A stretch of DNA of 64,000 nucleotides. Source: Acutalibacteraceae bacterium (GTDB lineage: Bacteria; Bacillota; Clostridia; Oscillospirales; Acutalibacteraceae). Numbering within the stretch: position 1 is the stretch's first letter; each line of letters begins with the position of its first letter. The position numbers were made by a program, and so were the translations under genes. The stretch spans positions 7,626 through 71,625 of the forward strand of contig JAZQWT010000155.1 in assembly GCA_045632485.1 (NCBI GenBank). Direction: 5' to 3'. This document shows positions 53,200 through 53,341 of the stretch, piece after piece. The notes beneath the pieces were generated by a model. It had not been told where the DNA came from and searched no databases. It saw only the letters and a list, made by a program, of their open reading frames with translations.

Positions 53200-53341
53200 A
53201 AACGGATAAAAACCATAACAGTATCTTTTGTTCGTTGCTCTACCAATTGGGCTACCTCACCATATTGGCGGTGAGGGACAGGACTTGAACCTGCAACACG
53301 CGGATTTTCAGTCGAAGTATCTGTTATGTGCAATGCCGTTT
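53200..53341 (-). ncRNA. Y-RNA-like unit Y5 = circularly permuted tRNA body
   Basis: AAACGG/CCGUUU; loop CAUUGCA / GUUUUUAU; CAUAACAG/CUGUUAUG. T arm GCAGG-UUCAAGU-CCUGU. Then CCUCACC-GCCAAUAU-GGUGAGG and D arm GCCC-AAUUGGUA-GAGC. Confidence 0.7.

What the first reader, a model, noticed from the sequence alone, without database searches (positions are those of the whole stretch)
53200..53341. Unit Y5 is a near-perfect circularly permuted tRNA that still carries G-CCA in its closing loop
RNA 5'->3': Ro-type stem, ACUGAAAAUCCGCGUGUU, T arm GCAGG-UUCAAGU-CCUGU, CCUCACC, G-CCA-AUAU, GGUGAGG, UA, D arm GCCC-AAUUGGUA-GAGC, then back into the stem. The 7-bp acceptor helix is perfect. The loop closing it is literally discriminator + CCA + 4 nt. 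The anticodon arm is replaced by the Ro-type stem.

Y2, Y4 and Y3 show the same topology but are progressively degenerate. Their T arms are AUAGG-UUCGAGU-CCUAU, GUGGG-UUCGACU-CCUAC and ACGGG-UGCAACU-CCCGU. Their acceptor-like stems are closed by GCUU, CUUGU and CUUU. Y1 has lost the module.

The array therefore looks like an evolutionary series from tRNA to Y RNA. It matches the known tRNA mimicry of YrlA. The retained CCA is consistent with derivation from a tRNA by end-joining, the reaction RtcB performs.
Basis: partly seen in the sequence, partly recalled or inferred. Interest (0 to 1): 0.65.

Follow-up and report, generated by a model that had tools for sequence, protein, structure and literature searches.

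The report
Phage Y RNA mimicking permuted tRNA-Phe
This is a small non-coding "Y RNA" of a gut phage, lying between an RNA-ligase gene and the Ro protein gene, whose core is a rearranged phenylalanine-type tRNA that keeps its CCA tail inside a loop; the tRNA mimicry is already known, but the CCA recurs in many related phage RNAs and suggests the loop is cut open to give a tRNA-like end.

Summary
On the minus strand at 53341-53200, Y5 has a T arm, a perfect 7-bp acceptor helix closed by G-CCA-AUAU, then U8-A9 and a D arm, all inside a terminal stem. All 76 tRNA positions are therefore present in permuted order.

Y5 sits in a five-unit array between RtcB and Ro60. It matches Rfam YrlA weakly (30.8 bits, gathering score 69). 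Permuted topology is already the published description of YrlA.

What is new is that N-CCA after a 7-bp stem recurs in 35 of 208 related phage Y units, about ten times expectation. These units have unrelated stems, A/U-rich spacers, U(-1) and G(+1). In one relative a real tRNA-Met is nested in that loop. I infer RNase P opens the loop; this is untested, and no RNA data exist.

The 4-nt spacer matches ordinary gaps between phage tRNA genes, which favours an origin from tandem tRNA genes over RtcB end-joining. The "evolutionary series" reading is not supported.

Verdict: a new variant of a known kind.

The parts
53367..53394 (-). Promoter-like site TTGTAA-16 nt-TATAAT upstream of the Y array (inferred start of the array transcript)
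   Evidence: 10 of 12 matches. The TTTTGCGAATTG...TATAAT block is conserved in L122, L124, L127, L305, L307 and L308.
53344..53360 (-). Small leader hairpin GUGCU-UGAAAAC-AGCAC just 5' of Y5, conserved in relatives
53200..53341 (-). Unit Y5, the whole RNA (about 142 nt): terminal stem AAACGG/CCGUUU, helix CAUAACAG/CUGUUAUG, and the tRNA-like module
   Evidence: Rfam YrlA hit at 53327-53212, 30.8 bits.
53313..53322 (-). Family 5'-strand motif AGAUACUUCG (GGUUACUUCG in most units), shared by all five units
53305..53311 (-). Anticodon-type 7-nt loop CUGAAAA (tRNA positions 32-38, GAA = Phe)
   Evidence: The same loop is in orthologs L122, L127, L098 and L307.
53295..53304 (-). UCCGC (tRNA 39-43) plus variable loop GUGUU (44-48)
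   Evidence: Family-wide covariation of 27:43 and 28:42.
53278..53294 (-). T arm GCAGG-UUCAAGU-CCUGU
53277..53277 (-).
53270..53276 (-). Acceptor 3' strand CCUCACC (tRNA 66-72)
53266..53269 (-). Discriminator G73 plus encoded CCA (74-76)
   Evidence: Recurs in 35 of 208 related units.
53262..53265 (-). Spacer AUAU. The U at 53262 is N(-1) of the predicted RNase P site, which lies between 53262 and 53261.
53255..53261 (-). Acceptor 5' strand GGUGAGG (tRNA 1-7)
   Evidence: All 28 callable genomic matches to this 5' half are tRNA-Phe(GAA).
53237..53254 (-). U8-A9 plus D arm GCCC-AAUUGGUA-GAGC
   Evidence: Compensatory GUUC/GAAC in L122.
53231..53236 (-). A26 plus ACGAA (tRNA 27-31). C28 and G29 can pair with G42 and C41. 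Alternatively CGAA pairs with UUCG of the 5' strand.
53069..53189 (-). Unit Y4 (T arm 53130-53114; short hairpin closed by CUUGU; no D arm)
52924..53057 (-). Unit Y3 (anticodon-like hairpin UUCGC-CUGCUAA-GCGAG at 53030-53014; T arm with aberrant loop at 53009-52993; hairpin closed by CUUU; D-like arm)
52789..52914 (-). Unit Y2 (T arm 52873-52857; hairpin closed by GCUU; D-like arm 52833-52819)
52685..52780 (-). Unit Y1 (family 5' motif but no tRNA-like module; YrlB-like)
51224..52648 (-). Ro60 ortholog (TROVE plus Ro60 vWA domains), 474 aa
53931..55163 (-). RtcB RNA ligase, 410 aa
53444..53896 (-). 150-aa ORF between RtcB and the array, with no family match

Best explanation
Y5 is the first unit of a five-unit, phage-encoded Y RNA array. 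The array is transcribed on the minus strand from its own promoter, between rtcB and the Ro60 gene.

Shown from sequence and comparison:
- The 5' and 3' ends form the stem that carries the motif shared by all units. This is the presumed Ro60-binding part.
- The interior holds every position of a class-I tRNA in permuted order: 32-76, a 4-nt spacer, then 1-31.
- The acceptor stem, D arm and anticodon loop are those of tRNA-Phe(GAA).
- The T arm, variable loop and G73 are as close to a phage tRNA-Asn.
- The helices are maintained by compensatory changes in orthologs.
- The family as a whole keeps a composite anticodon stem-loop. Pairs 27:43 and 28:42 come from the strand after the D arm. The lower pairs come from the conserved 5' strand ...UUCG-N.

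Inferred function: as in YrlA, the module is a tRNA mimic that tethers a tRNA-binding partner to Ro60.

Inferred processing (my estimate about 0.55): the 'closing loop' is really an inter-tRNA-type spacer. Together, the 7-bp stem, G73-CCA, U(-1) and G(+1) make a bacterial RNase P substrate. RNase P would cut between 53262 and 53261, and 3' trimming of AUAU would leave a two-piece Y RNA with a free CCA end. This is what happens in Mycobacterium smegmatis YrlA.

Inferred origin: adjacent tRNA genes (the dimeric-tRNA model), or recombination between a Y unit and tRNA genes that share the array. RNA end-joining is not needed.
For: Locus and family:
- Ro60 and RtcB flank the array on the same strand.
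- YrlA model hit over the full model length, with the T, acceptor and D elements aligned.
- More than 400 related units carry the same 5' motif in phage and metagenome contigs.

tRNA identity:
- ARAGORN calls the un-permuted sequence tRNA-Phe.
- The best matches among 1156 phage tRNAs are tRNA-Phe.
- All 28 callable genomic matches to the 5' half are tRNA-Phe(GAA), with the 3' strand CCUCACC.

Structure:
- The L122 ortholog (Ro 93% identical) has 11 differences in 142 nt. These include GCCC/GAGC to GUUC/GAAC and A27.C43 to U27-A43.
- Its unconstrained minimum-energy fold contains the T, acceptor and D hairpins.
- 13 of 16 module pairs show double changes across 23 units, and 0 of 500 shuffles reach this.
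- 27:43, 28:42 and the loop-closing pair covary in 105 units.

CCA and processing:
- CCA sits at positions 74-76 in 32 of 203 units, later 35 of 208, against about 3 expected (binomial 2e-22). The signal is offset-specific: 8, 32 and 4 at offsets 0, 1 and 2. Stems are unrelated (33 distinct).
- Discriminators are A 18, G 7, U 5, C 2.
- U(-1) occurs in 24 of 35 CCA units against 55 of 173 others (P 9e-5). No GNRA or UNCG tetraloops occur among them (0 of 35 against 44 of 173). Spacers are 83% A+U.
- In L309, tRNA-Met(CAU) lies between ...CCCUGCA-A-CCA and UGCAGGG-UA-D arm.
- L308 and L310 carry a ~90-nt structured insert at the same site.
- M. smegmatis YrlA has a 7-bp stem, is cut by RNase P and receives CCA (PMC4201824).

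Origin:
- Spacers after encoded CCA between real adjacent tRNAs in these loci are 1-10 nt, median 7.
- Real tRNA-Lys, Tyr and Met genes with CCA sit inside related arrays.
- An identical Y stem carries a Phe-like module in the window and a class-II Leu-like module in L124 and L125.
Against: - No RNA-level data exist for Y5. The only metatranscriptome contig covers Y1 and Y2 of a relative. Expression, Ro binding and cleavage are all untested.
- The YrlA score is far below Rfam's gathering score (30.8 against 69).
- The published GNCGAAN0-1G motif is not present as such.
- The extra C at 53277 interrupts the T/acceptor stack that RNase P measures. It could shift or weaken cleavage.
- For Y5 itself the minimum-energy fold does not contain the T and D arms. 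Enforcing them costs about 2 kcal/mol.
- The parent isoacceptor is not clean. The 3' half matches one phage tRNA-Asn better than any tRNA-Phe, and G73 differs from the A73 of all tRNA-Phe hits.
- The alignment used for covariation was selected for pairing, so its percentage paired is partly circular.
Confidence: 0.65

Rival explanations
1. Closed-loop relic. Y5 works as an ordinary YrlA with an intact, closed acceptor hairpin. G-CCA-AUAU is only an unselected leftover of the tRNA genes from which the module came.
For: - Most YrlA RNAs are thought to keep a closed loop, and S. Typhimurium YrlA is not cut (PMC4201824; bioRxiv 10.1101/312249).
- G73 can pair with the last spacer U, giving an 8-bp hairpin with a CCAAUA loop in the predicted fold.
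- The extra C may spoil RNase P recognition.
- 19 units carry CAA at the same place, which looks like decay of CCA.
Against: - CCA is kept at the exact register in 35 units with 33 different stems, while discriminator, spacer and stem all vary.
- These units specifically avoid stable tetraloops and are enriched for U(-1).
- The loop position can hold a real tRNA, which must be excised.
Confidence: 0.3
2. Decoy or bait for tRNA-targeting host defence (compatible with the best explanation). The tRNA-like module with a genuine anticodon loop draws anticodon nucleases or other tRNA-directed effectors away from host or phage tRNAs, or presents cut tRNA-like ends to Ro60 and RtcB for repair.
For: - 83 of 105 family units keep a 7-nt loop with U33 and R37, and the triplets are diverse: GUU, UGU, UUU, GAA, GCU and others.
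- In L307 the Y5 ortholog is reduced to the Y stem capped by GGA-CUGAAAA-UCC alone.
- Related arrays carry tRNA-Lys(UUU), Tyr and Met genes.
- RtcB is adjacent.
- NAD-salvage genes that look like counter-defence lie next to Ro60.
- Phage RtcB and TROVE genes are discussed as repair of cleaved tRNAs (PMC7824862).
Against: - This is purely contextual. No nuclease, host or cleavage data are available.
- Loop triplets do not match the body type in most units, so they may simply be inherited.
Confidence: 0.15
3. Permuted pre-tRNA. Y5 is matured, as in the permuted tRNA genes of Cyanidioschyzon, by cutting off the Y stem, ligating position 31 to 32 (by the adjacent RtcB) and opening the acceptor loop. 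The product would be a functional tRNA-Phe.
For: - All 76 positions are present at canonical spacing, and ARAGORN accepts the un-permuted sequence.
- RtcB is encoded 590 nt upstream.
- The authors of the YrlA structure raised this possibility (bioRxiv 10.1101/312249).
Against: - The un-permuted anticodon stem has only 3 of 5 pairs (4 of 5 in L122).
- There is an extra nucleotide between the T and acceptor stems.
- G73 replaces the A73 found in every tRNA-Phe hit.
- The Y stem and its motif are conserved like those of the four module-poor units.
- Bacteria and phages are not known to have the splicing endonuclease this pathway needs (established knowledge).
Confidence: 0.03
4. A mature tRNA was circularised by RtcB, reverse-transcribed and inserted, which created the permuted gene.
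For: - RtcB is adjacent.
- Reverse-transcriptase genes lie near the array in relatives L124, L127 and L308.
Against: - RtcB needs 3'-P or 2',3'-cyclic-P plus 5'-OH ends, which mature tRNAs lack (established knowledge; PMC7824862).
- End-joining leaves no spacer, yet spacers of 1-18 nt, a ~90-nt element or a whole tRNA occupy the junction.
- These spacers look like normal inter-tRNA gaps.
Confidence: 0.03
5. Not a Y RNA at all. Y5 is a decaying pair of tandem tRNA-Phe genes that happens to lie near Ro60, the false positive that Chen et al. filtered out.
For: The T arm of one tRNA plus the D arm of the next can score as YrlA (PMC4201824, methods).
Against: - ARAGORN and Rfam find no tRNA on either side.
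- The flanks are instead the conserved Y stem and motif shared with Y1-Y4 and with more than 400 units.
- Substitutions against L122 are compensatory.
Confidence: 0.03

Closest known systems
YrlA (Y RNA-like A; Rfam RF02553), e.g. Salmonella Typhimurium YrlA (structure PDB 6CU1)
   Same: - Encoded next to Ro60 and RtcB on the same strand.
- A stem formed by the two ends, plus an interior module in the order T arm, acceptor-like hairpin, D arm.
- Conserved T-loop and D-loop nucleotides.
- Already described as resembling a circularly permuted tRNA.
   Different: - The Salmonella acceptor-like stem has 6 bp, closed by a 3-nt loop, with no CCA and no anticodon loop.
- Y5 has a tRNA-length 7-bp stem, an encoded G73-CCA plus spacer, and a tRNA-Phe anticodon loop.
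- Y5 scores only 30.8 bits against the gathering score of 69.
- The 5' strand motif differs: AGAUACUUCG or GGUUACUUCG rather than GNCGAAN0-1G.
Mycobacterium smegmatis YrlA (PMC4201824)
   Same: A 7-bp acceptor-like stem. It is cut by RNase P at the tRNA 5'-end position, and its 5' half ends in CCA, so it exists as two pieces bound by Rsr.
   Different: - In M. smegmatis the CA is added after cleavage. In Y5 and 34 related units the full N-CCA is encoded.
- Cleavage of Y5 is predicted, not shown.
Dimeric-tRNA origin model for YrlA (Sim and Wolin 2018, as cited in bioRxiv 10.1101/312249)
   Same: Y5 has the predicted layout: anticodon, variable and T regions, acceptor 3' strand and CCA of a first tRNA; a short spacer; then the acceptor 5' strand and D arm of a second.
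   Different: - The model was a proposal without an example that retains CCA, spacer and anticodon loop.
- Here the two halves have complementary acceptor strands of a single tRNA type.
- Other units look chimeric.
Circularly permuted tRNA genes (Cyanidioschyzon merolae and other algae; one archaeon)
   Same: The 3' half is encoded before the 5' half. The acceptor strands are joined by a short intervening sequence that follows the CCA region. The termini pair at the anticodon side.
   Different: - Those are matured through a bulge-helix-bulge motif, splicing endonuclease and ligase into working tRNAs.
- Y5 has a conserved Ro-type stem, a weak un-permuted anticodon stem, an extra nucleotide and a non-Phe discriminator.
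- No such endonuclease is known in bacteria.
Two-piece tmRNA from permuted ssrA genes (alpha-proteobacteria, some cyanobacteria; recalled from my own knowledge, not checked here)
   Same: A bacterial tRNA-like domain encoded in permuted order. Its acceptor strands are joined in the precursor by a segment that is removed, leaving a two-piece RNA with a CCA end.
   Different: tmRNA is aminoacylated and acts on ribosomes with SmpB. There is no Ro60 link, and no D arm or anticodon loop of tRNA type.

Membership tests
YrlA-type bacterial/phage Y RNA | Encoded within about 4 kb of a Ro60 (TROVE) gene, on the same strand | tested here: met
   Y5 is at 53341-53200(-). Ro60 is at 52648-51224(-), with TROVE E 1e-35 and vWA_Ro60 E 2e-12.
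YrlA-type bacterial/phage Y RNA | Interior module in the order T arm, acceptor-like hairpin, D arm, with conserved T-loop and D-loop nucleotides | tested here: met
   Rfam YrlA alignment covers model positions 1-114. Covariation is seen in 23 related modules.
YrlA-type bacterial/phage Y RNA | Reaches Rfam RF02553 gathering score (69 bits) | tested here: not met
   30.8 bits, E 2e-4 in a 1.2-kb search, and not listed at gathering threshold. Relatives score 32-40 bits.
YrlA-type bacterial/phage Y RNA | 5' and 3' ends form a stem with the conserved 5'-strand motif GNCGAAN0-1G (the Ro60 binding site) | tested here: inconclusive
   The terminal stem is present (AAACGG/CCGUUU, CAUAACAG/CUGUUAUG). 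The motif as published is absent. Instead there is a family-specific GGCAUUGCA...AGAUACUUCG.
YrlA-type bacterial/phage Y RNA | Bound by Ro60/Rsr; modified by TruB and DusA | not testable with these tools
   No RNA or protein-binding data. RNA runs do not cover Y5.
Functional circularly permuted tRNA gene | 3' half upstream of the 5' half, with the acceptor strands joined by a short intervening sequence | tested here: met
Functional circularly permuted tRNA gene | The un-permuted product is a canonical tRNA: 5-bp anticodon stem, no extra nucleotides, and identity elements of its isoacceptor | tested here: not met
   The anticodon stem has 3 of 5 pairs. There is an extra C between positions 65 and 66. 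G73 contrasts with A73 in all 28 tRNA-Phe hits.
Functional circularly permuted tRNA gene | Bulge-helix-bulge junction processed by a splicing endonuclease | not tested
   A 4-bp UUCG/CGAA helix lies between the two would-be junction sites, but no formal bulge-helix-bulge test was done. The enzyme is not known in bacteria (established knowledge).
Tandem (dimeric) tRNA genes | Two complete tRNA genes, head to tail | tested here: not met
   ARAGORN and Rfam tRNA find no tRNA at 53200-53341. The first 31 nt of the 'first' copy and the last 45 nt of the 'second' are replaced by the Y stem.
Bacterial RNase P substrate (pre-tRNA-like) | 7-bp acceptor stem stacked on a T arm, G(+1), U(-1), and 3' RCCA | tested here: inconclusive
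   The 7-bp stem, G(+1), U(-1) and GCCA are all present and enriched in the CCA class. The extra C at the T/acceptor junction departs from the substrate geometry. Cleavage itself is not testable here.

The most novel reading that the evidence does not exclude
A sizeable subclass of phage Y RNAs, Y5 included, are not closed tRNA mimics. They are precursors that RNase P opens into two-piece, Ro60-bound tRNA look-alikes with a mature N73-CCA 3' end and an intact anticodon stem-loop. In that form they would be charged by a synthetase or, more likely, serve as baits or substitutes for host tRNA-cleaving defence nucleases. The neighbouring RtcB would reseal the cuts. The same Ro-binding scaffold would be re-armed with different tRNA-type modules (Phe-like, Leu-like and others) by recombination with tRNA genes in the array.
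Probability: 0.15. Interest if true: 0.85.

Novelty: new variant of a known kind. Interest (0 to 1): 0.55.

Why it matters
YrlA-type Y RNAs are known tRNA mimics, but their partner and their origin remain open questions.

- **Origin.** Y5 and its relatives look like the intermediate that the dimeric-tRNA origin model predicts. They keep an anticodon loop, variable loop, T arm, acceptor 3' strand and CCA, then a gene-type spacer, the acceptor 5' strand and the D arm.
- **Selection on CCA.** The CCA is kept in many units whose stems differ. This argues for function rather than mere descent.
- **A testable prediction.** A class of Ro60-bound RNAs would have free CCA ends generated by RNase P. End-mapping and an in vitro RNase P assay would test this directly.
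- **Possible role.** It raises the question of whether these RNAs engage synthetases, the CCA-adding enzyme, EF-Tu or anticodon nucleases during phage infection.
- **Annotation.** Rfam's YrlA threshold misses this large phage family. Filters that discard dimeric-tRNA-like hits would remove exactly these units.

Tried and rejected
- **Plain minimum-energy folding of Y5.** It recovers only the terminal stem and acceptor hairpin, with z = -1.6. Uninformative alone, so I replaced it with energy evaluation of the proposed structures and with the ortholog fold.
- **Rfam at gathering thresholds.** No YrlA is called in the window or in ten related loci. Only permissive searches show the match.
- **The Rfam tRNA hit on Y3 in normal, non-permuted order (29.6 bits).** Rejected as a real tRNA. 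Its 'acceptor 5' strand' AGCAG is the terminal Y stem pairing with CUGCU at the unit's 3' end. The score comes from the real anticodon-like hairpin and T arm.
- **BLAST against deposited phage genomes.** Only rtcB matches. No annotated relative of the array.
- **Ro60 protein as a single query against viral contigs.** One locus only. DNA patterns and look-ups of Ro homologs were far more productive.
- **Public RNA runs.** One metatranscriptome contig on Y1 and Y2 of a relative, and nothing on Y5. No processing information.
- **Assigning a parent tRNA to each half of every CCA-class unit.** Noisy. Halves agree in 1 of 25 units, and Y5's 3' half is closest to a tRNA-Asn. I therefore do not claim repeated clean capture of whole tRNAs, nor a certain Phe parent for the 3' half.
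- **Residual tRNA similarity in the Y-stem strands.** Inspected by eye. Nothing beyond chance.
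Full report
**1. What is at the coordinates.**

- T arm GCAGG-UUCAAGU-CCUGU (53294-53278)
- CCUCACC (53276-53270)
- G (53269), CCA (53268-53266), AUAU (53265-53262)
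- GGUGAGG (53261-53255), UA, and D arm GCCC-AAUUGGUA-GAGC (53252-53237)

These are enclosed by a terminal stem: AAACGG/CCGUUU and CAUAACAG/CUGUUAUG.

Three details were missed.
- There is an extra C (53277) between the T stem and the acceptor strand.
- The D stem has one C.A mismatch.
- The 'linker' before the T arm reads CUGAAAA-UCCGC-GUGUU. That is a 7-nt anticodon loop with U33, GAA and A37, then the 3' strand of an anticodon stem, then a 5-nt variable loop, at exact tRNA spacing.

Every tRNA position from 1 to 76 is therefore present, in the order 32-76, spacer, 1-31. When the two parts are joined in silico, ARAGORN calls the product tRNA-Phe(GAA), with or without the extra C. The join point was my choice, but all the letters are Y5's own.

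**2. Surroundings.**

All features lie on the minus strand:
- RtcB (55163-53931)
- a 150-aa ORF with no family match (53896-53444)
- five Y-like units, Y5 to Y1 (53341 to about 52685)
- Ro60 with TROVE and vWA domains (52648-51224)

A promoter-like TTGTAA-16-TATAAT (53394-53367) and a small hairpin precede Y5. Both are conserved in relatives.

The window is a temperate siphovirus-like phage. It has a terminase, an SPP1-type portal, a serine recombinase and RecT. A lysin with a dockerin domain points to a Clostridia host. An NAD-salvage cluster lies directly downstream of Ro60.

The Rfam YrlA model aligns to 53327-53212 over its whole length. The score is 30.8 bits, E 2e-4 in a 1.2-kb search, well below the gathering score of 69.

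**3. What is already known.**

- Chen et al. 2014 (PMC4201824) showed that YrlA RNAs next to Ro60 contain T, acceptor-like and D elements in this order.
- They also showed that M. smegmatis YrlA, the one with a 7-bp acceptor stem, is cut by RNase P and acquires CCA.
- Wang et al. 2018 (bioRxiv 10.1101/312249) solved the Salmonella module. [quoted passage not shown]
- The same paper cites a model in which YrlA arose from dimeric tRNA transcripts.

The permuted topology is therefore the defining, published property of the family, not a new observation. In the papers I could read, I found no mention of an encoded N-CCA or of a retained anticodon loop.

**4. Which tRNA.**

- Among 1156 tRNAs called in the phage and metagenome loci fetched here, un-permuted Y5 is closest to tRNA-Phe(GAA). 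A single phage tRNA-Asn is a near tie.
- A scan of one genome per species with Y5's 5' half (acceptor plus D arm, slightly degenerate) gave 33 hits. All 28 that ARAGORN could call are tRNA-Phe(GAA). Most have the 3' strand CCUCACC (some carry one or two changes), and several read AACGGACUGAAAAUCCGUGUGUC where Y5 has AACGAA / CUGAAAAUCCGCGUGUU.
- Those tRNAs all have A73, whereas Y5 has G73. Y5's T arm and variable loop match the tRNA-Asn better.

I therefore call the module tRNA-Phe-like in acceptor stem, D arm and anticodon loop. I do not claim a certain parent for the 3' half.

**5. Orthologs and structure.**

Look-ups of Ro60 homologs gave orthologous arrays.

- **L122 (Ro 93% identical).** Its first unit differs from Y5 at 11 of 142 positions. 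Acceptor, CCA, spacer and extra C are unchanged. The D stem becomes GUUC/GAAC: one compensatory change and one mismatch repaired. A27.C43 becomes U27-A43.
- **L127 and L098.** They keep the CUGAAAA loop but have other acceptor stems: CCUUUCC-A-CCA-AAC-GGAAAGG, and UCUCUCA-C-CAA-AAG-UGAGAGA.
- **Energetics.** For Y5, enforcing the T, acceptor and D helices costs about 2 kcal/mol relative to the minimum (-34.1 against -36.3). For L122 the unconstrained minimum already contains them.
- **Covariation in the module.** On 23 CCA-class modules, 13 of 16 pairs show changes on both sides, including all seven acceptor pairs, and no shuffle or register shift comes close. The units were chosen for pairing, so the percentage paired is partly circular. 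The compensatory changes are not.
- **Covariation around the anticodon stem.** In 105 units with canonical spacing, 27:43 (91 of 105) and 28:42 (92 of 105) covary between the strand after the D arm and the strand before the variable loop. The loop-closing pair, formed with the nucleotide after the conserved UUCG, also covaries (94 of 105). Position 30 of the post-D strand does not pair with position 40 (16 of 105).

The family thus keeps a composite anticodon stem-loop. The Ro-type stem enters it around positions 28-30. Of the 105 loops, 83 have U33 and a purine at 37. This is the hairpin that Chen et al. drew as a 'V' arm.

**6. The CCA is recurrent.**

Two DNA patterns anchored on the 5' motif and the T loop, not on the acceptor region, recovered several hundred loci.

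- After removing ARAGORN tRNAs and duplicates there are 403 Y-type units.
- 208 have an acceptor-like stem with at least 6 of 7 pairs in tRNA register.
- The signal is register-specific: 8, 32 and 4 at offsets 0, 1 and 2.
- The 35 units have 33 different stems.
- Discriminators are A 18, G 7, U 5, C 2.
- The spacer after CCA is most often 4 nt.

Compared with the other 173 units, the CCA class:
- has U at -1 in 24 of 35, against 55 of 173 (P 9e-5)
- has G at +1 in 22 of 35
- has spacers that are 83% A+U
- never has a GNRA or UNCG tetraloop (0 of 35 against 44 of 173, P 2e-4)

There appear to be two designs. One is closed by a stable tetraloop. The other carries every determinant of a bacterial RNase P site.

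In three relatives the same site is expanded:
- L309 holds a complete tRNA-Met(CAU) between ...CCCUGCA-A-CCA and UGCAGGG-UA-D arm (ARAGORN, and Rfam at 57 bits).
- L308 and L310 hold a conserved, structured ~90-nt element there.

Releasing the nested tRNA would necessarily open the Y RNA's acceptor loop.

**7. Mechanism.**

Shown:
- the anatomy
- the family context
- conservation of the helices and of CCA

Inferred:
- Y5 binds the phage Ro60 through its terminal stem and presents a tRNA-shaped module, as YrlA does.
- RNase P cuts between U53262 and G53261, and trimming of AUAU leaves a two-piece RNA with a CCA end, as in M. smegmatis.

I put the Y RNA and tRNA-mimic reading at about 0.9 and the cleavage at about 0.55. 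The extra C at the T/acceptor junction is the main structural reason for doubt. The complete lack of RNA data is the main evidential one.

**8. Origin.**

- In the same loci, real adjacent tRNA genes whose upstream member encodes CCA are separated by 1-10 nt, median 7. CCA-AUAU-G1 is what lies between two neighbouring phage tRNA genes.
- Related arrays interleave Y units with genuine tRNA-Lys, Tyr and Met genes that encode CCA.
- The identical Y stem carries a Phe-like module in the window and a class-II, Leu-like module in L124 and L125. That module has a long variable arm, D arm GUGGAAUUGGCAGACAC, and CCGCCCG-A-CCA-AU-CGGGCGG.

This fits descent from, or recombination with, tandem tRNA genes.

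It does not fit RtcB end-joining of a mature tRNA, for three reasons:
- The end chemistry is wrong.
- A spacer is present.
- Reverse transcription would also be needed.

**9. The 'series'.**

But each type recurs at its own array position in relatives. They are maintained paralogs, not snapshots of decay. Y1 is comparable to YrlB.

**10. Verdict.**

- Y5 is a new variant of a known kind: a YrlA-class phage Y RNA that retains a full permuted tRNA(Phe)-like sequence, including the anticodon loop and an encoded CCA.
- It belongs to a recurrent CCA-bearing subclass that is probably processed like a pre-tRNA.

Noticed in passing
window 30705-30761, 42342-42400, 58272-58343, 58538-58595 (all minus strand): Four matches to the type-P5 twister ribozyme above Rfam's gathering score (44-50 bits), spread through this phage genome on the coding strand.
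   Followed up: no
window 10912-11264 (minus strand): A cluster of four tRNA genes, Leu(UAA), Leu(CAA), Ser(UGA) and Gln(UUG), 4-8 nt apart, between the capsid and portal region genes.
   Followed up: no
window 46638-50192 (minus strand): An NAD-related gene cluster directly downstream of Ro60: NAD synthase, NAMPT-like nicotinamide/nicotinate phosphoribosyltransferase, a PRPP-synthetase-like protein and an isochorismatase-family (nicotinamidase-like) protein. It may be a counter-defence NAD-replenishing module.
   Followed up: partly
window 52985-53054 (minus strand; unit Y3): The Rfam tRNA model scores 29.6 bits (gathering score 29) on Y3 in normal, non-permuted order. The match rests on Y3's anticodon-like hairpin UUCGC-CUGCUAA-GCGAG and its T arm. 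The supposed acceptor 5' strand is really the Y terminal stem.
   Followed up: yes
L309 171-300: A complete tRNA-Met(CAU) (200-275; ARAGORN, and Rfam at 57 bits) is nested inside the acceptor 'loop' of a Y unit, between ...CCCUGCA-A-CCA and UGCAGGG-UA-D arm.
   Followed up: yes
L308 1861-1955 and L310 1610-1690: A conserved ~90-nt insert with three predicted hairpins sits after CCA in the acceptor loop of the first Y unit. It matches no Rfam family.
   Followed up: partly
L307 about 1790-1870: The Y5 ortholog is reduced to the Y stem capped only by GGA-CUGAAAA-UCC, a tRNA-Phe anticodon arm. The T, acceptor and D parts are deleted.
   Followed up: partly
L124 198-1238; L127 7257-8309; L308 663-1697: Reverse-transcriptase (RVT_1) genes lie within a few kb of the Ro60/Y array in several relatives. 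I found none among the window ORFs I scanned.
   Followed up: no
L101 about 724-830 (minus strand of the locus): In this Y unit, the acceptor 3' strand (UUCCCGAU) pairs with the 5' end of what looks like a complete downstream tRNA-Leu. The arrangement resembles a living dimeric tRNA.
   Followed up: no
window 53233-53272, run X2: An 80-nt DNA contig at about 8-fold higher depth than the phage contigs matches the D arm and acceptor part of Y5 (35 of 40). It continues into GACUGAAAAUCCGUGUGUC on one side and a different T arm on the other. It is probably a genuine tRNA-Phe gene next to another tRNA in the same gut sample.
   Followed up: no
window 53444-53896 (minus strand): A 150-aa ORF between RtcB and the Y array has no Pfam or PHROG match.
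   Followed up: partly
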